Below are positions 15,001-21,000 of a DNA stretch of 64,000 bases, one piece after another. Source of the DNA: Candidatus Latescibacterota bacterium (GTDB lineage: Bacteria; Latescibacterota; UBA2968; UBA8231); NCBI GenBank assembly GCA_965197905.1, contig CBDAOB010000004.1, positions 736,001 to 800,000 of the forward strand, read 5' to 3'. Position numbers: made by a program. The first letter of the stretch is position 1, and each line of letters begins with the position of its first letter.

Positions 15001-18000
15001 CAGCTGTTGACGCGAATTTTCCTACCCCTGGCGCTTGGGGTTTTGTTGGTCTATGTGCTCTGGTTCATACCGTCGAACTTCTGGCATCCGTTCCGCGAGC
15101 GCGAGGCATTGATCGTGTACAACGCCACGATACTGGGCGTCTTGATGCTGTTGAGCATTGCCGTCAGCGGACCCGCTCCTGAAGGAAACGTGCTGCGCAA
15201 TGCGCTGCTGGCTTTGGCCGTACTGACCGCCCTCCTGAATGCCTACGCACTGGCAGCCAACCTCACGCGCATCTTCGAGTTGGGCTTGACACCCAACCGA
15301 TACGCGGTAGCGGGATGGAACGTCGTCACCATGCTCATGCTTTCGACGGTGATTTTCCGGTTGTGGAGCGGGGGCCCGGAACAGTGGGTGCCGAGCCTGC
15401 GACGGGGAATCGCCCTCGCCTCGGTGCTAGCCGCCGTTTGGTCAGCGTGGGTCGTCGTTGGGCTGCCGTTGTCGTTCTCTTAGAAATCTGTTTCAACCGC
15501 GGGGTGCTGCACGCACTCGGTGGGATCAGTCGTTGTACTTCTCTGGAGGGATACGATGCTCGGAGGAGAAACTCATGTTTTCCGGCAAAGGCATGAATGC
15601 GGGGATCATCTCACTCCTTCGCGCCATAATGTGTTCCATCGGATCGGTTATCTGATCCAGCTCCTTATCGCTTATCGGCAGCGAATAACGCACCATCGGC
15701 GTATAACGCTGAAATGCTTCGGCGTAACCTACCCCCGCCTTGTTGCCGTAGTGGCCGTCCTGCATCTCGCCCCGCTTCCGAGAGTAGGCACCGCCGTAGT
15801 ACTGACTGGATATACAGTCCAAGGCTTTCACCTTCTTGTCGATTACATCGGTGATATCAACGTATAGATCGACCCGCGAAGTGCTGGCGTATTCAAGAGT
15901 ATTGGCACCGATGTAAGCGATCGGATTCATGAAATAGATGACCGGTGTGAGGTGCCTTTCCTGCCGGCCGCGCCCGGTCCCCTGAGCCAGGGTCGCCGCG
16001 AAGACTGTCGCCTGTCCGATGGTTCCGTGCATCTTCAAACCGCCGGTTTCGTACGGATGATGCGAAATCAGCAGATCCGGTTTCACCTCGCGGATAACGT
16101 CGGCGATCGCCTCTACCTTGGCCCGGTCCAACAAAAGGTCGTCATCCTCGAACCCAAGGTCCCGTAGATCGTCGAAACCACAGATACGGCAGGCGTTGCG
16201 GGTTTCTTCCAGCTTCTGAGCCACCGCCTCTTTCATTTTGGTCTCAACATCCAGGTCGGCTCCCTCCCGCTGCTTTTCGTCTTTCAGCTCCCAGTGATGC
16301 GAACGCACGCCGGTAGTGGCGATTGCGACGGTGACTTGGTCACCGCGTGCCACGTGGTGGGCCAAGGTTCCCCCCGCCTGATCGAAGCTGTCTGCGGGAT
16401 GGGCGGCAACGAGCAAGATCTGAATCGGTCGGCTCGGCATGTGGTTTCCTCAGGGCACGGGTTTCGATCTGTTTTTGTAGATCTCTTCGTGACCGGGGGG
16501 AATGACCCCGCCGATCTTCAGCGCCTGTTTTCCGTTCTCGCCGGCGAAGGGACGCGCCAGAAATTTGGGTTCCTCTTCGACGAAAACTACGACGGGTCCC
16601 GTCTTTGGTGTGTCCGAACAGATGATATCGCCGGTCTTCAACGTTCGGGCTTCGCCCAGGGAGATCTGCGTCCGCCCCAGCTCGGCCGTAACCGGCATGA
16701 AGGTCTTGTTCAGACGCTGGTTGTTCTGTTGAATCAGGTCATCTTTATTCGTCTGTGAAATCCGGACATAACTTTGTTGTCCCAACCGCGGCAGGATCGA
16801 TTCGAGGGTAAAGAAGGGATAGCACAGGCTGACCAGGCCCGAGGCGTTTGTAGAGTTGACCTCGAAAGCCAGCAGGATGACGATCTCACTGGCCGCCGTG
16901 ATCTGCATGAACTCCGGGTTGGTCTCCAACTCGATGTCGGTGACCTCTACCCGCAGAATCGGCTCCCAGGTCGCTTCCAGATCTTCGATGACCCGCTTGG
17001 TGATGCGATGAATCACACCAACCTCGATCGGGGTCAGGGTTCGCGGTTCCACGCCTTTGTGGGAGCCCTTACCGCCGAAAATCCTGTCGACGAAAGCGAA
17101 GGTTACCGGCATGGCAAAATCGATGATCGCCTGCCCATTGGTGGGACCCAATGTAAACTGGTAGGAACAGGACGGATTCGACAGTGACATGATGAATTCG
17201 GCATAGGTAGTCTGGTCCACGAACGCCGTTTCCACATCCACCACGGCACGCATGGCGCCGGAAAAGGTGGAGCTCAGCAGTCGGGCGAAGTTGTCGTGCA
17301 GGTTTTCCAGGGTGCGCAGCTGATCCTTGTTCACCCTCGCCGGGTGTTTAAAGTCGTAGCTGGTGACTATTCGTTTTTGAGGTCGTCCGCGGTTCTCCTT
17401 CTTCTGTTGCATCTCCATGTATTGAGCCAAAGCCTCTCCCATCGCCAGGCGCAGCTCCTCCCGCGCCTTTTTCGATATTCTCTTGCCCTTGAGCAGGGTG
17501 TCCAGCTCCTTCAGCGCTGCCGCCTCCAACGCCTCTCCCCGTTCATTGACCGCCAAACCTGCCAGTCTCTGCAGAAAACCCGAAATTTGGCTCTCGTCCA
17601 GCTTTTGCTTCTTGAGACGGCCGTAGAAACCGTCCGACTCCTTGGATAAGAGCAGCGCATCGATTTCATCCTGAGAGAGTATGTCAGCCATGTCAGTCTC
17701 CTACAAATCTTAGACGTAATCGTCTCCGGTGTCGCCGCGAACTATCCTAACCTTCCCCTGCTCTTCGAGCTGCCTCACTGTTTGCACGATCCGCAGCTGC
17801 ACCTCCTCCACATCACGGCGCAGCATCCGTTCCAGCCCCTCCATGCCTTCTCGAACCGAGGTGCAAGCCCGCTCCGACATGTTGCTGAAAAATCGTTCTC
17901 GCAGTTCCTCGCCGGCCTGTTTTAGTGCGATGGTAAGATCTTTCTCATCTGTTTCGCGTAACAGAGTCTGGATTTCGGTATCCGTCATCTTGCCGATCTC

Positions 18001-21000
18001 GGCGAAAGTAAACATCTGATTGCGCACTGATTCGGCCACCTCCGGATCCTGCGCATCCATCTGGTTGAGAACGGTCCGCTCCACGCTTGAGCCCGTCAAA
18101 TTCAGCACGTCGGCCAGCACCTTGGGTCCGCCTACGTCCTGATCCCGACCGAGCAAGTCTCGAAGAGAAGCTTCCAAAGCTTCTTCGAGGTTCGCGATCA
18201 CCTTTTGAGGGACGTTCTCGGTAGTCGCCATTCGATATGACACGTCTGCCTGTAAACGTTCGGGCAATTGTGCCAGTACCCCTGCTGACCTGCGTGGTTC
18301 AAGCTGCGAGAGAATGAGCGCGATCGTCTGCGGGTGCTCGTTAGATAAGAAGGGAGCGATCTGATCCGCCTCCACTCTGTTGAGCATGCTGAACCCGGAT
18401 TCGGTAGAATCTATATTCCTGTCAACAAAGTGATTCGCCCGGTGTGGTCCCACCACCTTGGTCAGCAGCCCGCGGGCATACGCCGGGCCGCCGATCTCCA
18501 CGTAGTCACCAGCCACGATGCGCCGGTGCGCTGTCTCCAACGCGTGCATAGCGAGCTGATGCCCAACCTCGGGCATCTCCGCAATAGCTCGCGCGACGAG
18601 CTGAGTTTCCTCGCCCAGATGTCGGCAGACCTGGGCACCAATTTCCTCGCCCAGACCGATCAATATGGCCGCTACCAACTGTTGAGCAGTCAGATCAGAG
18701 AGCGGTCCCTCGTCCCGGCTTGCCTCTTCTCTTCGGATGATAGTTCGGACCACGGCTGCTGTTTCTTTAGCGTGGTGAAAGAGGTAGGCATGGGTGCTGT
18801 CAGCGGCGATTCCAGACGGTAGGAGAGGCGCCGAGGAGGTGTCGGGAGGTTTTGCCACAGCCTCCACGGTCTGGGGGCGCGGTTTTGGCACGTGCAGGGG
18901 TGGCATCGCGTCGACGGCAGCCTCGTCTGGGCATGTCCAGCTTGCAACCGTTTGTTTCTCTTTAAACTCGGTCGAGCCGCCCACGATGCGGGCCCCTGTA
19001 GTTTTTTGAGGCGCGGCGCTCATGAGGTCACCTCGTGATCGACGGGAAAATCGTGAAGGCGGGTGATGCGTACGGCCATGAGGTCTGTAACAACCACGAT
19101 CTCCCCTTCGGCAAAGGGCCTCCGGTTGACCAGCACACCGAAGGCCTCGCCGGCCAGTTTATCGAGCTCGATGACGTCGAACGCCTGCAGCCTCCGTACC
19201 TGACCCAAGGTCATTTCCTTGCGACCCAATTCCACCATCACTTCGGCCACCACATTGGCCAGATCCGCGCGTGGGGTGCTTTCGAGAGTTGTCATTCGGA
19301 CCTCCTCTCAGACCTGTCCCAGAACCTCGGTGAGTCGCACGCCGAAGTTCTCATTGACCGTGATGACCTCACCCCGAGCGAAGTGTTTGCCGTTGACGAA
19401 TACGTCGATGGGATCGCCCACCTCCTTGTCCAATTCGATCAGCGACTGTTCGCCCATGTCGGAGATGTCCTCCATGGTTTTCGTGGTACCACCGAGTACC
19501 ATCTGGACCATGACGGGCATATCCTCGAGCAGGTCGATATTGTCACGTGGTGCCGCCGGCTTCGGCGGAACTGCCTTTTTCTTTGGGGTCTTGCTCGTTG
19601 CCATTTCGCTTTGCTCCTTCCCTCGAAGTGGGTAGATGAGCCGCTCGCTTCAACAGTGTACGGAACTCCAGAGCATAATCCTATAAGGGTTTTTACTAGG
19701 TAGATGGAGCTTCCCTAAGGTCAAGACCGAACCTGTAGGCGTAGAGCACCGCTGGCCCATCCGCCTCAAAATGCAGTCGCACTTCCTGACCCACGAAACG
19801 TGCCAGATCGCTGCGCTCCTGCCCCCAGGTGATTTCGAAGTCGGTTTGGTCGTCGCGCTCCAGGCCGTTGCAGTTGTCCAGCTCGAACCCTTCCGGAACC
19901 TCGGTATCGCATACCACCCGAACTCGGATGCGGCCGTTGTTACTCGGCTTCTTTGTGCCGAAAACGCTGGCATTCAGAAATAACCTTGCGCCGTCGACCC
20001 GCACGGGTTCAGTCATCAACTCGCCGGCGCCACCCGTGCACATCCCCACGAATCCATCCTTGCGCAACGTCGCCAGACCGATGGCCGCCTGGAACTTTTG
20101 ATCGCTGCCGTGACGACGCATGCCCGAATACCAGATGTGCAGCACGTTGTCCTTGAGGATGGGCGGATTCAGCGATGACGAGACCCAGCCATGGTCCCAG
20201 GCGCCCGGGGTCCCGATGGGCAGGAACTGTTCGTGTTTCCCGACTCGATGCCACTTCGTGAGGTCGCGCGCCGTAGCCAGCTCAGTTGCACCTTGGCCCG
20301 TCGAGGTGTAGAAGAGCGCCAGAAATCCCAGGTATTGATTGCCATAGGCAAACGGCGTCATCAGCTCGAACTGGTCGCGTGTCTCGTCGAAGTCATCCGG
20401 TTTGAGAACCGTCTCCATCGGAGTCCAGTTGACGAAGTCCTCGCTGGTACTCAAGGCGACCACCTTGCGGTACTGCTTCCACTGCAGAATGAAATGATCG
20501 GCAATCGTCCCAGCGCGCCGCGACACGGCTATGAACCGACGTGTGCCCGGATCGAAAACGACCGCGCCGCCATCGCCGGCTCTCGCAATAGACGGTTGGT
20601 CGTCCAGGGTCCAGCGGATTCCATCGTTGGAGTGGGCAGTGTACATGCCATGGCGCTCGAGCACGGACTCAAAATACCTTCGCCGGTCTTCCGGACTCGC
20701 TGATTTTCCGGCACGAGGCAGCTCTGCCTGGCGCTCCTGGTAGTACCCCATCTTGTAACGGCGCGTTGCGTCTTCTTCGCGGTCATCCTTGATGATGCCC
20801 CACGGGTGCAGCGAGCCGTGCTCCGGACGAGTTTCCGGCGTGGGGTAAACGATGTTGTTCGCCGTAGATCCCTGAAACGGGAACACGCCCAGCTCGGGCT
20901 TGTCCCACTTCACGCCGTCGGTTGAGCTGGCGTAACAGATATACTTCTGGGCTTCGTTGCCGGCGCCGGCGGGACCGTGGGTGAAGTACCACATTTTGAG

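What a model noticed while it worked through the whole genome (the two positions that open the first line are those of the whole stretch)
16450..19604. Eight FliG genes: six scattered solitary copies, none in the fliF-fliH slot, plus two extra FliM-FliG-FliN-FliN operons [...]
One flagellar gene set coexists with eight full-length FliG genes. The fliF-fliH junction of the flagellar operon (C5:2493341-2495674) has no fliG; six solitary FliG genes (g00533, g01139, g01287, g01472, g03890, g05394; 70-92% identical, 342-345 aa) lie singly among unrelated genes. Two four-gene operons encode a whole alternative switch set FliN-FliN-FliG-FliM: C4:752450-755604 (g02335-g02338; FliM keeps the CheY-binding peptide) and C1:140221-142782 (g00122-g00125; FliG lacks the C-terminal domain and EHPQ, FliM lacks the CheY peptide). 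Multi-copy FliG is a trait of the family.
Evidence so far: Gene tables and contexts; pairwise BLASTP; motifs. Scan of 25 genomes with g01287 at E<=1e-40: 8 matches in G000, 9 in G098 and G105, 7 in G039, 6 in G094 and G120; none in 10 genomes, among them all 6 of family f4. The Pfam table lists 5 FliM genes, 9 FliMN_C-only genes and 3 partial FliG-domain genes.
(Added by a program. Inside this text positions count along the whole contig: contig position 736,001 is position 1 of the stretch shown here. "Call 12" and the like, gene names such as g00115 and contig names such as C1 are that model's own, and its searches are not shown. The text may have been shortened before it was handed on; [...] marks where a part breaks off. 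The agent that wrote the report below was given it as the finding of a first reader that could run no searches.)

Follow-up and report, generated by a model that had tools for sequence, protein, structure and literature searches.

The report
Flagellar rotor genes carrying FliF's tail
An uncultured Latescibacterota bacterium keeps nine copies of the flagellar rotor gene fliG, and three of them sit in their own switch-protein operons and have fused to themselves the short tail of the membrane-ring protein FliF that normally anchors FliG, one of these also being fused to a signalling kinase.

Summary
The operon at 16450-19604 (minus strand: FliN, FliN, FliG, FliM) is real. So are the six solitary fliG copies, the empty fliF-fliH slot and the second operon on contig C1.

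It encodes a sigma-54 response regulator, FliM, FliN, FliN and a 1030-aa FliG N+M domain fused to a hybrid histidine kinase.

New here: all three operon-borne FliGs, but none of the solitary ones, carry an N-terminal extension that is a copy of the FliF C-terminal FliG-binding tail. In kinase-fusion homologues it is 80% identical to FliF (E 8e-14). This joins the FliF/FliG 'split domain' in one chain.

FliG paralogues were found almost only in genomes with flagellar genes. In the sister genome that deleted fliR-fliI, operon B is deleted and operon A is damaged.

I read them as flagellum-linked accessory switch modules whose FliG N domain is pre-loaded with its own tail. A is a rotor-type module with a CheY-binding peptide on FliM. 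B is a kinase-bearing module resembling Campylobacter FlgS/FlgR. What they do in the cell is inferred, not shown.

Verdict: a new variant of a known kind, with high interest.

The parts
19308..19604 (-). Operon A, FliN-a (98 aa)
   Evidence: PF01052 at 1.9e-21. TIGR02480 scores 85.4 bits against a cut-off of 84.05. It is 63.5% identical to the FliN of the flagellar operon.
19020..19295 (-). Operon A, FliN-b (91 aa), a second and distinct FliN type
   Evidence: PF01052 at 5.9e-18. It is 65% identical to the 169-aa FliN-like gene at C5:1628742-1628981.
17710..19023 (-). Operon A, FliG (437 aa): about 107-aa N-terminal extension followed by FliG_N, FliG_M and FliG_C
   Evidence: Pfam and NCBIfam. 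AF2 mean pLDDT is 83.8. The best Foldseek hits are Salmonella FliG in C-ring cryo-EM maps, 8wo5_B5 at E 9e-15. The EHPQT motif and the GG hinge are present. In the torque helix, E-G aligns with D-E of T. maritima FliG in 1lkv.
18733..18801 (-). FliF-tail copy inside the FliG extension (residues 75-97, two helices)
   Evidence: It aligns with the last 25 residues of FliF. hhalign of 59 A-type FliGs against 21 FliFs gives this as the best and only hit, E 0.028. AF2 pLDDT is 91-95 for residues 71-100. In kinase-fusion homologues the same segment is 80-81% identical to FliF.
18880..18990 (-). Second conserved motif of the extension (residues 12-48; R-I-[LV]-G, then W-x-P, then M-P-P), role unknown
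   Evidence: It is conserved in the A-type and B-type consensus. AF2 pLDDT is 82 for residues 31-40.
16450..17691 (-). Operon A, FliM (413 aa): N-terminal peptide (residues 1-16, nt 17644-17691), about 90-aa insert, FliM domain and FliMN_C
   Evidence: Pfam and NCBIfam. The first 14 residues are identical to those of the FliM in the flagellar operon. Residues 3-21 match positions 2-20 of the FliY profile at E 0.0089. The same long form with the peptide occurs in G081 and G067.
28819..30324 (-). Operon B, NtrC-type sigma-54 activator response regulator (501 aa)
   Evidence: REC, Sigma54_activat, AAA_lid_14 and HTH_8. No NCBIfam equivalog is reached.
30351..30366 (-). Sigma-54-type -24/-12 element, 42 nt upstream of the operon B regulator gene
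   Evidence: It has 2 mismatches to the recalled consensus. Background is 0.022 per 350 nt. A like element with 1 mismatch sits directly upstream of the orthologous gene in G078.
27782..28822 (-). Operon B, FliM (346 aa), no N-terminal CheY-type peptide
   Evidence: PF02154 at 3.1e-47. The N terminus is shown.
27458..27760 (-). Operon B, FliN-a type (100 aa)
   Evidence: PF01052 at 7.6e-19.
27105..27461 (-). Operon B, FliN-b type (118 aa)
   Evidence: PF01052 at 1.5e-17.
24012..27104 (-). Operon B, fusion protein (1030 aa): extension with FliF-tail copy (about residues 113-140, nt 26685-26768), FliG_N, FliG_M, start of FliG_C, an alpha/beta domain, coiled coil, HisKA, HATPase_c, REC and a C-terminal helical bundle
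   Evidence: Pfam. The AF2 model has mean pLDDT 76.3. In the protein collection, 31 clusters combine FliG_N, FliG_M and HisKA. The tail matches FliF 99-117 of the last 120 residues at E 4e-4 in a three-sequence search.
9530..14140 (+). Context: FapA-domain protein (9530-12085) and hybrid histidine kinase (12158-14140), convergent with operon A
   Evidence: FapA_N and FapA. HisKA, HATPase_c and REC. The kinase is 46% identical to the kinase half of the operon B fusion. The neighbourhood is kept in the sister genome but not in G078.

Best explanation
Operon A encodes one complete paralogous flagellar switch protomer: two different FliNs, FliG and FliM. Its FliG carries, fused in front of its N domain, a copy of the FliF C-terminal tail. 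That tail is the peptide which in ordinary motors co-folds with FliG_N and anchors the C ring to the MS ring.

Operon A is one of three tail-bearing modules in this genome:
- A has a full rotor FliG, and its FliM has a CheY-type N-terminal peptide.
- B replaces the torque domain of FliG with a hybrid histidine kinase and sits behind a sigma-54 activator.
- C lacks the torque domain altogether.

I propose that the fused tail fills the FliG_N groove. The protomer would then be folded and stable without FliF. The modules would act as accessories of the single flagellar system, not as independent machines. A would be a soluble, pre-assembled, exchangeable or competing rotor/switch unit. B would be a C-ring-type scaffold for a kinase that couples switch or basal-body assembly to sigma-54 transcription, working like Campylobacter FlgS/FlgR.

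Shown: the gene content, the domain content, the homology of the extension to the FliF tail, the phyletic link to flagellar genes, and the co-decay in the sister genome.

Inferred: that the tail binds FliG_N, whether it does so in cis or in trans, and every physiological role.
For: 1. Anatomy.

2. Tail homology.
- G000 FliF ends in a motif shared by 13 of 21 FliFs of the phylum (the window's own and 12 of 20 fetched, all of families f1-f3); the rest carry looser versions.
- Kinase-fusion homologue P0002, residues 152-186, is 28/35 identical to FliF 457-491, E 8e-14.
- P0006 matches G078 FliF at 26/32, E 1e-13.
- The A-type profile against the FliF profile gives one local hit, exactly extension 78-103 to FliF 467-491, E 0.028.
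- All six solitary FliGs lack the extension.

3. The tail is predicted as two helices with pLDDT 91-95.

4. Complex prediction, tail 64-104 against FliG_N 105-215.
- Verdict: weak support. Score 0.52, best of 3 controls 0.03.
- The mark was reached by 116 of 157 solved complexes and 2 of 215 mismatched pairs. At 0.60 or under it was reached by only 18 of those 157 and by both mismatches that passed.
- The runs agree in at least 96% of contacts and the partner pLDDT is at least 67.
- FliF_C:FliG_N complexes are solved (5tdy and 5wuj, seen), so the pass may reflect likeness only.

5. [quoted passage not shown]

6. The class is widespread and conserved.
- 63 of the 120 best FliG homologues carry the tail motif.
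- Tail-bearing full-length FliGs occur in at least 14 of 91 genomes of the class.
- Of the 24 A-type homologue rows printed, 22 keep the torque-helix block like the solitary copies; the other two are the window's own near relatives, and a third row (P0133) breaks off inside it.
- dN/dS between G000 and the sister genome is 0.06-0.24 for the four genes.

7. Link to the flagellum.
- 47 of 55 genomes with FliG_M have a full FliF match, and 65 of 66 without FliG_M have none.
- Three of the exceptions (G118, G109, G075) have intact flagellins.
- G060 deleted fliR-fliI.
- In G060, about 7 kb containing operon B is replaced by about 140 bp.
- In G060, FliG-A lost the hinge hexapeptide and is frameshifted before the torque helix, and FliM-A lost its N-peptide and insert.
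- In G060, FliM-C is in two frames and 2-3 solitary copies are broken.

8. Parallel for operon B.
- FlgS co-precipitates with FliF and FliG, and the FliG N domain alone supports FlgSR signalling (passages of PMC3760246).
- Sigma-54-type elements lie upstream of operon B in two genera, and also upstream of the flagellin gene.
Against: - No experiment and no expression data exist. No RNA run holds the locus.
- The complex prediction gives only weak support and may come from memory of solved complexes.
- A tail bound in cis would block docking on FliF. Yet, outside the window's own near relatives, the A-type FliGs I printed keep the stator-facing charges, and some A-type FliMs keep the CheY peptide. 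That argues for a working rotor that must be attached somewhere. The cis-capped model does not explain this unless the tail is exchanged for FliF's.
- The CheY peptide is not general. It is absent from A-type FliM in G078 and G077.
- In G000's own clade the torque helix has diverged. Operon A here may already be losing function.
- The regulator of operon B reaches no flagellar equivalog.
- The palindrome upstream of operon B occurs nowhere else in the genome, so no regulon could be drawn.
- Co-decay rests mainly on one sister genome. G066 shows a similar picture only in fragments.
- The G000 assembly carries at least one indel that 4 of 4 runs contradict.
Confidence: 0.55

Rival explanations
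1. Trans adapter or daisy chain. The tail-bearing FliG docks on a FliF tail through its own N domain. It then offers its fused tail to a further, tail-less (solitary) FliG or to the next tail-bearing one. The number of rotor subunits would no longer be set one-to-one by FliF, and the rotor could be widened or mixed from isoforms.
For: - Tail-less and tail-bearing FliGs coexist in the same genomes.
- Most A-type FliGs keep the torque helix and some A-type FliMs keep the CheY peptide, as expected of subunits of a working motor.
- One stator set and one FliF serve many FliGs.
- Structure prediction cannot tell cis from trans.
Against: - Only about 15 residues separate the tail from FliG_N, which should favour binding within the molecule.
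- Each tail-bearing FliG has its own FliM and two FliNs. That suggests insulated complexes rather than mixing in one ring.
- There is no structural evidence for more than one FliG per FliF.
Confidence: 0.15
2. Non-flagellar scaffold. The tail-bearing modules form FliF-independent C-ring-like assemblies used for signalling or polarity and unrelated to the flagellum.
For: - A cis tail removes the need for the MS ring.
- Operon B is a two-component system.
- FliG domains are fused to other signalling domains in this phylum: P0033, P0040 and P0041.
- G000 and G060 keep many copies although core flagellar genes are broken.
Against: - No genome without flagellar genes has any FliG_M match. All 20 genomes of genus g17, all 10 of g18 and all 3 of g10 have neither FliG_M nor FliF.
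- The modules decay or are deleted in G060 together with the flagellar operon.
- G066, which has only flagellin fragments, has only fragments of FliG and FliM.
Confidence: 0.12
3. Plain paralogous switch sets. The operons are ordinary duplicates of the switch genes used as alternative rotors of the one motor, as with Borrelia FliG1/FliG2. The N-terminal extension would have no special role.
For: - The domain sets are complete and family scores pass the cut-offs.
- Borrelia has two FliGs with different roles (passage of PMC7225975).
Against: - The extension is conserved across 59 aligned A-type proteins, with invariant P69, H78, A79 and R93.
- It is specifically a copy of the FliF tail.
- Types B and C lack the torque domain and so cannot be rotors.
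Confidence: 0.1
4. Relics. In this genome the operons are decaying leftovers of a flagellar system that is being lost, and they have no present function.
For: - flhA, motA and flgE are broken in the assembly.
- The torque helix of FliG-A has diverged in this clade.
- FliG-A has the highest dN/dS of ten neighbouring genes, 0.24.
- The sister genome shows outright damage.
Against: - All genes of operons A, B and C are intact in G000.
- dN/dS of 0.06-0.24 is far from neutral.
- Unbroken motA and flgE alleles exist in the same populations.
- The flgE insert is a sense-strand group II intron whose exons join in frame (and my arithmetic).
Confidence: 0.08

Closest known systems
Canonical flagellar switch complex (FliG, FliM, FliN; Salmonella C-ring structures 8umd, 8wo5, 9n49)
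   Same: The domain sets and family scores match. FliG-A has the FliG fold. The EHPQ motif, the GG hinge, the FliM N-terminal peptide and the FliMN_C domains are present.
   Different: The genes are not in the fliF-fliH slot. FliG carries about 107 extra N-terminal residues that include a FliF-tail copy. There are two distinct FliNs. FliM has a 90-aa insert. The second acidic residue of the torque helix is glycine in this genome.
FliF_C:FliG_N co-folded split domain (5tdy of T. maritima, 5wuj of H. pylori) and engineered or expressed full-length FliF-FliG fusions (8z4d; PMC6079021 and PMC10941966, search listing and abstracts only)
   Same: The same two partners, the FliF C-terminal helices and FliG_N, are joined in one chain.
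   Different: Only the tail of about 25-35 residues is fused here, without the membrane ring. The fusion is natural and is conserved in a whole protein class. In the A type the tail is about 7 residues shorter than in FliF.
Campylobacter jejuni FlgS/FlgR flagellar checkpoint (PMC3760246, passages read)
   Same: A cytoplasmic histidine kinase is associated with FliF and FliG and feeds a sigma-54 NtrC-type regulator. The FliG N domain is the part that matters. Operon B has the kinase, the regulator and a sigma-54-type promoter.
   Different: The kinase here is covalently fused to FliG N+M and to a FliF tail. It is a hybrid kinase with a receiver domain, and it comes with its own FliM and two FliNs. 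The regulator does not reach the FlgR or FlbD models. No target genes are known.
Borrelia burgdorferi FliG1/FliG2 (PMC7225975, passage read)
   Same: More than one FliG serves one type of flagellum, with division of labour.
   Different: Borrelia has two copies, against nine here. No FliF tail, dedicated FliM/FliN sets or kinase fusion is described there.

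Membership tests
FliG (TIGR00207; Pfam FliG_N, FliG_M, FliG_C) | Three-domain architecture with the family score above the curated cut-off | tested here: met
   FliG-A scores 277 bits against a cut-off of 226.7 and has all three Pfam domains. Its fold matches solved FliGs. FliG-B scores 193.9 bits, below the cut-off, and has N+M only. FliG-C has N+M only.
FliG | EHPQR-type motif of the middle domain (FliM contact) and the Gly-Gly hinge | tested here: met
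   EHPQT and DVGGPK are present in A, in B and in all six solitary copies. C reads ELPQT. The names of the motifs are recalled.
FliG | Charged residues of the torque helix facing MotA | tested here: inconclusive
   The solitary copies, and 22 of the 24 A-type homologue rows printed, keep the R...EE...R pattern. FliG-A of this genome has E-G where T. maritima FliG (1lkv) has D-E. Which residues are essential is recalled, not tested.
FliG | Binds the FliF C-terminal tail through FliG_N and so sits on the MS ring | not testable with these tools
   Only a prediction is available, for its own fused tail: weak support, 0.52 against 0.03.
FliM (TIGR01397) | FliM domain plus FliMN_C, above the cut-off; N-terminal CheY-binding peptide | tested here: met
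   FliM-A scores 236.3 bits against a cut-off of 219.6. Its first 14 residues are identical to those of the operon FliM. Residues 3-21 match the start of the FliY profile at E 0.0089. Binding to CheY was not tested.
FliN (TIGR02480) | FliMN_C domain above the cut-off | tested here: met
   FliN-a scores 85.4 bits against a cut-off of 84.05. FliN-b scores 64.6 bits, below the NCBIfam cut-off but above Pfam's 23.8.
FlgS/FlgR-type flagellar checkpoint two-component system | Kinase activity depends on MS-ring and rotor assembly; the regulator activates sigma-54 flagellar genes | not testable with these tools
   Only the architecture and promoter-like elements are available. The regulator is far below the FlgR and FlbD cut-offs, at 255.8 and 282.8 bits against 750. 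I therefore claim that it works like this system, not that it is a member.
Group II intron (insert in flgE, side finding) | Domains 1-4 and domain 5 recognised by Rfam; GUGYG...AY ends | tested here: met
   RF02003 scores 106.8 bits against a gathering score of 49. RF00029 scores 39.2 bits against 40, just under. The ends read GUGCG...AC on the flgE strand; the end consensus is recalled.

The most novel reading that the evidence does not exclude
The fused FliF tail is a built-in pseudo-ligand. It keeps FliG_N folded in the cytoplasm and is displaced by real FliF tails when an MS ring appears. On this reading, module B is a histidine kinase that reads MS-ring assembly directly by tail competition and reports it to sigma-54. 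Module A is a ready-made, CheY-responsive rotor protomer that can be swapped into the motor, or kept out of it. Alternatively, the tails let FliG rings form with no MS ring at all. Either way this would be the first natural case in which the MS-ring/C-ring joint has been turned into a regulatory switch.
Probability: 0.25. Interest if true: 0.85.

Novelty: new variant of a known kind. Interest (0 to 1): 0.72.

Why it matters
The joint between the MS ring (FliF tail) and the C ring (FliG_N) is treated as a fixed one-to-one structural link. Here a whole class of FliGs in an uncultured phylum carries that tail in the same chain.

One branch of the class replaces the torque domain with a histidine kinase, next to a sigma-54 activator. 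That offers a directly testable molecular form of the idea that flagellar checkpoints sense rotor and MS-ring assembly. In Campylobacter this idea is known only through co-precipitation.

The finding also gives natural constructs for studying FliG_N folding without FliF. It adds a clade in which FliG, FliM, FliN and flagellin are all gene families. Two sister genomes caught while losing the flagellum show which parts fall together.

My paper searches found no description of a FliG-kinase fusion or of a FliG bearing a FliF tail. The library lacks most subscription journals.

Tried and rejected
- My first sigma-54 scan had an indexing error and found nothing. It was replaced.
- Sigma-54 and sigma-28 elements were sought upstream of operon A, operon C and the six solitary fliG genes. 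None was found at my thresholds, except a weak sigma-28-like site upstream of the copy at C5:1997700.
- I tried to draw a regulon for the operon B regulator from the palindrome at window 30459-30474. It is unique in the genome, and the 19 near matches with 1-2 mismatches were not examined further.
- I considered that the first motif of the extension mimics the FliH N terminus, which binds FliN (the binding is recalled). This organism's own FliH N terminus shows no convincing likeness, so I dropped the idea.
- I considered that the hybrid kinase at 12158-14140 is the partner of operon A. It is 46% identical to the kinase half of B and is kept in the sister genome. No kinase lies near operon A in G078, so I did not pursue it.
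- No RNA holder was listed for the flagellar locus, so nothing can be said on expression.
- Foldseek says nothing about the tail, because it compares single chains.
- Contamination or mis-assembly as the source of the copies was considered. The six solitary copies lie in different, ordinary gene contexts on long contigs. Four are intact at 81-94% identity in the one-contig sister genome.
- The paper search was useless, because 'flig' also matches 'flight'.

Full report
**1. What is in the window**

On the minus strand at 16450-19604 lie four tightly packed genes.
- FliN-a, 19604-19308, 98 aa.
- FliN-b, 19295-19020, 91 aa.
- FliG, 19023-17710, 437 aa.
- FliM, 17691-16450, 413 aa.

Pfam and NCBIfam confirm each one. 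FliG (277 bits against a cut-off of 226.7), FliM (236.3 against 219.6) and FliN-a (85.4 against 84.05) pass the curated NCBIfam cut-offs. FliN-b passes only Pfam's. The unit may be longer than four genes. Short gaps (91, 13 and 54 bp) join it upstream to a 501-aa protein of no known family, a kinase of the APH family and a HAD hydrolase. A 9-bp gap joins it downstream to a PIG-L deacetylase.

- An NtrC-type sigma-54 activator response regulator, 30324-28819.
- FliM, 28822-27782.
- FliN, 27760-27458.
- FliN, 27461-27105.
- A 1030-aa protein, 27104-24012, with FliG_N and FliG_M followed by HisKA, HATPase_c and a receiver domain.

I call the two operons A and B, and the one on contig C1 operon C.

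**2. The genome-wide claim**

The organism belongs to Latescibacterota. The only relative in genome contigs is a record so titled, and the named homologues are almost all from that phylum.

In the laid genome, FliG_M is found above its cut-off at nine loci.
- Six solitary genes of 342-345 aa. They sit among unrelated genes and are 67-92% identical to each other.
- FliG-A, FliG-B and FliG-C.

FliG-C has only the N and M domains and reads ELPQ for EHPQ. Its FliM has no N-terminal peptide.

There is one full fliF, one motB with a plug and one che cluster. There are five FliM and nine FliN-only genes.

In the flagellar operon, fliF and fliH are 72 bp apart with no fliG between them.

**3. State of the flagellar genes**

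- flhA is in two frames because of one extra T relative to the sister genome.
- motA is in two overlapping frames. motB, fliL and flbD are whole.
- flgE is in three pieces.

One break in flgE is a 749-bp insert (L001:10115-10863). It is an ORF-less group II intron on the flgE strand: RF02003 scores 106.8 bits against a gathering score of 49, and RF00029 scores 39.2 against 40. The genome holds 13 near-full-length copies at 99.7% identity or more. By my arithmetic the two exons join in frame, so this insert need not kill the gene.

I laid Logan contigs of four runs (two samples, two studies) on the operon.
- The form without the intron appears in 3 of 4 runs.
- An 11-base shorter motA appears in 1 of 4 runs. 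By my arithmetic it restores the frame.
- A 1-base shorter flgE at L001:9384 appears in 1 of 4 runs.
- No difference was reported at the flhA frameshift in the two runs whose contigs cover it.
- One base at L001:3760 is present in all four runs but absent from the assembly. The assembly therefore has indel errors, and the apparent FliO-FliP fusion is probably one of them.

The flagellar genes are thus being inactivated, and the population is polymorphic.

**4. The key finding: the extension is the FliF tail**

FliG-A, FliG-B and FliG-C have 90-145 extra N-terminal residues that the solitary FliGs lack.

G000 FliF ends in a helix-forming tail. Counting the window's own FliF, 13 of 21 FliFs of the phylum share its motif (12 of the 20 fetched, all of families f1-f3); the rest carry looser versions.

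The extension contains the same motif.
- In B-type homologues it is nearly unchanged. P0002 residues 152-186 are 28/35 identical to FliF 457-491, E 8e-14. P0006 matches the FliF of G078 at 26/32, E 1e-13.
- In the A type and in the window's own B, both halves of the motif are kept but about seven residues between them are missing.
- A profile of 59 A-type FliGs against a profile of 21 FliFs gives a single local alignment, exactly extension residues 78-103 to FliF 467-491, E 0.028.

AlphaFold2 models this part of FliG-A as two helices with pLDDT 91-95, while the rest of the extension is mostly low.

The complex test of extension 64-104 against FliG_N 105-215 gave weak support. The score was 0.52 and the best of 3 controls 0.03. 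The mark was reached by 116 of 157 solved complexes and 2 of 215 mismatched pairs, but at 0.60 or under by only 18 of those 157 and by both mismatches that passed. The runs agree in at least 96% of contacts, and the partner pLDDT is at least 67. Because FliF_C:FliG_N complexes are solved, this shows likeness rather than binding.

FliF's tail and FliG_N are known to co-fold and to need each other (passages of PMC8956890). In this class the split domain has been joined in one chain.

A second conserved motif lies nearer the N terminus: R-I-[LV]-G, then W-x-P, then M-P-P. I cannot explain it.

**5. How widespread**

- Of the 120 best homologues of FliG-A, 63 carry the tail motif and are 369-438 aa long. 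The other 57 include the tail-less copies of about 319-348 aa and 14 longer proteins (356-512 aa) that my motif pattern did not match.
- In a scan of 91 genomes of the class with the A-type profile, matches that begin within the extension occur in at least 14 genomes of families f1, f2 and f4.
- The order FliN-FliN-FliG-FliM is kept in G078, G081, G067, G077 and G118, and partly in G124.
- The FliG-kinase architecture occurs in 31 protein clusters down to 35% identity. The whole operon B is kept in G078.

A quick tree of 66 FliGs gives three results.
- All FliGs of this class fall on one side of a branch with support 99, against the 11 canonical FliGs taken from outside families f1-f4 of the phylum (of these, G012 and G024 each show two FliG_M matches).
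- The A clade has support 100, and type C and 5 of 14 kinase fusions nest inside it.
- The other 9 kinase fusions, including the window's, sit near the solitary clade with weak support (83-89).

Whether the kinase was fused once or twice is open. Long branches make this part unsafe.

**6. What the sequences say about function**

- Of the 24 A-type homologue rows printed, 22 keep the same torque-helix block as the solitary copies. The window's FliG-A and its two nearest relatives in that list have changed it. Against T. maritima FliG (1lkv), E-G stands where D-E stands.
- FliM-A begins with the same 14 residues as the FliM of the flagellar operon. Its start matches the start of the FliY profile.
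- The same 415-aa form, with the peptide and a 90-aa insert, is found in G081 and G067. A-type FliMs of G078 and G077 lack the peptide.
- FliM-B and FliM-C lack it.

The AF2 model of the B fusion (mean pLDDT 76.3) shows, in order: the tail helices, FliG_N, FliG_M, the first helices of FliG_C, a small alpha/beta domain, a long coiled coil, the kinase core, a receiver and a C-terminal helical bundle.

A sigma-54-type -24/-12 element lies 42 nt upstream of the operon B regulator gene (2 mismatches; background 0.022 per 350 nt). Another lies 130 nt upstream of a flagellin gene. G078 has one with 1 mismatch directly upstream of its operon B. A perfect 16-base palindrome about 100 bp further upstream is unique in the genome. 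The consensus sequences used are recalled.

**7. Are the modules tied to the flagellum?**

Across 121 genomes of the phylum, 55 have FliG_M and 49 have a YscJ_FliF match.
- 47 of the 55 have a full FliF match.
- 65 of the 66 without FliG_M have none.
- All 20 genomes of genus g17, all 10 of g18 and all 3 of g10 lack both. Many of these are single-contig assemblies.

Of the exceptions, G118, G109 and G075 have several intact flagellins, so their fliF is probably unassembled. G066 has only flagellin fragments and only fragments of FliG and FliM.

The sister genome G060 is one contig.
- It has lost L001 positions 2087-15002, that is fliR to fliI.
- It has no full fliF.
- The stretch corresponding to window 23.9-30.9 kb, which holds the whole of operon B, is replaced by about 140 bp.
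- FliG-A lacks the hinge hexapeptide and is frameshifted just before the torque helix. FliM-A has a degraded N-peptide and no insert. The six flanking genes are whole.
- FliM-C is in two frames.
- Four solitary copies are intact (81-94% identical to one G000 copy) and two or three are in pieces.

dN/dS between the two genomes is 0.24 for FliG-A, 0.14 for FliM-A, 0.06 for FliN-a and 0.13 for FliN-b. The six neighbours range from 0.05 to 0.20. Selection therefore acted for most of the divergence, and the damage is recent.

Three f1 genomes with fliF show a single tail-less FliG match (G056, G092, G113). They are 78-86% complete, so further copies may be unassembled; as far as it goes, this suggests that the solitary type can serve the motor alone.

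**8. Reading**

Shown: the anatomy, the origin of the extension, the spread of the class, and the link to flagellar gene content.

Inferred:
- The tail fills FliG_N.
- The protomers (tail-FliG, FliM, FliN-a, FliN-b) fold and assemble without FliF.
- They act on or beside the one motor.

For B, the closest working parallel is Campylobacter FlgS/FlgR. There the kinase co-precipitates with FliF and FliG, and the FliG N domain alone supports signalling to sigma-54 (passages of PMC3760246). I do not file B as a member, because its regulator is far below the FlgR and FlbD cut-offs.

For A, the conserved stator face and the CheY peptide speak for a real rotor/switch unit. How such a unit attaches if its N domain is occupied is the open problem. 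Three possibilities remain open:
- exchange of its own tail for FliF's;
- binding in trans to a neighbouring FliG;
- free rings that form without an MS ring.

A wholly non-flagellar role is disfavoured by section 7.

**9. Prior knowledge**

Multiple FliGs are known in spirochaetes (PMC7225975, passage). Full-length FliF-FliG fusions are known as constructs (PMC6079021 and PMC10941966, search listing and abstracts; PDB 8z4d). A Latescibacteria genome paper mentions flagellar genes only in general terms (PMC4454575, passages). My searches found nothing on FliG-kinase fusions or tail-bearing FliGs. The library lacks most subscription journals, and I saw no supplements.

**10. Limits**

- All functional statements are inferences.
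- Gene calls are my own longest-ORF calls.
- The tree is a quick one.
- Genome counts are samples of incomplete assemblies.
- The co-decay argument rests mainly on one sister genome.
- The G000 assembly has at least one indel error.

Noticed in passing
L001:10115-10863 (G000 C5:2488115-2488863): A 749-bp ORF-less group II intron sits in flgE on the sense strand. The genome has 13 near-full-length copies at 99.7% identity or more. Contigs of 3 of 4 runs also show the intron-less flgE allele, and depth over the element is 50-150 times that of its flanks.
   Followed up: partly
L001:3760 (within the apparent FliO-FliP fusion ORF, L001:2880-4295): All four runs have one more C here than the G000 assembly. 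The 471-aa FliO-FliP 'fusion' is therefore probably an assembly indel, and single-base frameshifts in this assembly need care.
   Followed up: partly
window 9530-12085 (+) and 12158-14140 (+): An 851-aa protein with FapA_N and FapA (flagellar assembly protein A) domains is followed by a membrane hybrid histidine kinase. That kinase is 46% identical to the kinase half of the operon B fusion. The pair is convergent with operon A and is kept in the sister genome.
   Followed up: partly
window 51535-57147 (+): A Reg_prop/Y_Y_Y sensor kinase appears split into two ORFs: 51535-54507 ends with HisKA, and 54510-55661 begins with HATPase_c and REC. A second sigma-54 activator response regulator follows. 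The split may be a frameshift or an assembly error.
   Followed up: no
L012:5007-6221 (G000 C5:1435007-1436221); L082:3223-3654; L083:3339-4166: A 404-aa protein has only a FliG_C domain followed by a hydrophobic stretch that I read as membrane-spanning (not tested), next to a sigma-70-family gene. In G081 and G067, small ORFs that match the C-terminal part of FliG-A lie directly upstream of the A-type operon; the G067 one begins with a hydrophobic stretch.
   Followed up: no
proteins P0031, P0033, P0040, P0041: The public collection holds further FliG fusions, from unnamed sources: FliG+FliM in one chain (801 aa), FliG + FGE-sulfatase + SpoIIE phosphatase (822 aa), and Reg_prop/Y_Y_Y hybrid kinases ending in a FliG_C domain (about 1360 aa).
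   Followed up: no
L065:6402-6974 (G000 C3:312402-312974): A 190-aa protein matches only the second half of the YscJ/FliF ring-building domain. Like matches occur in G060, G078 and G067. It has no FliF tail. A Mutator-family transposase fragment lies nearby.
   Followed up: no
G060, G118, G075: Flagellin is also a gene family in this clade, with 10 Flagellin_N matches in G060, 5 in G118 and 5 in G075.
   Followed up: no
L002:9309-11009 (G000 C1:143309-145009): A large serine recombinase (Resolvase, Recombinase, Zn_ribbon_recom) lies about 530 bp upstream of operon C. A matching fragment lies beside operon C in G060 (L042), so operon C may sit on or next to a mobile element.
   Followed up: no
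window 30459-30474: A perfect 16-base palindrome lies about 100 bp upstream of the sigma-54-type element of operon B and is unique in the genome. Half-sites recur at 30512 and 30603. It is a candidate activator binding site.
   Followed up: partly
G075:C58:3521-8849; G117:C20:2591-7135; G124:C242:3-3517: Some genomes carry two tail-bearing FliGs within a few kb of each other. These include forms of about 690-720 aa whose extra part I did not examine.
   Followed up: no
L063:12952-14445 (G000 C5:2470952-2472445): Beside flhF, flhG and a fliA-like sigma gene, a GAF-HisKA ORF and a separate HATPase_c ORF lie head to tail. This looks like another split kinase in the flagellar region.
   Followed up: no
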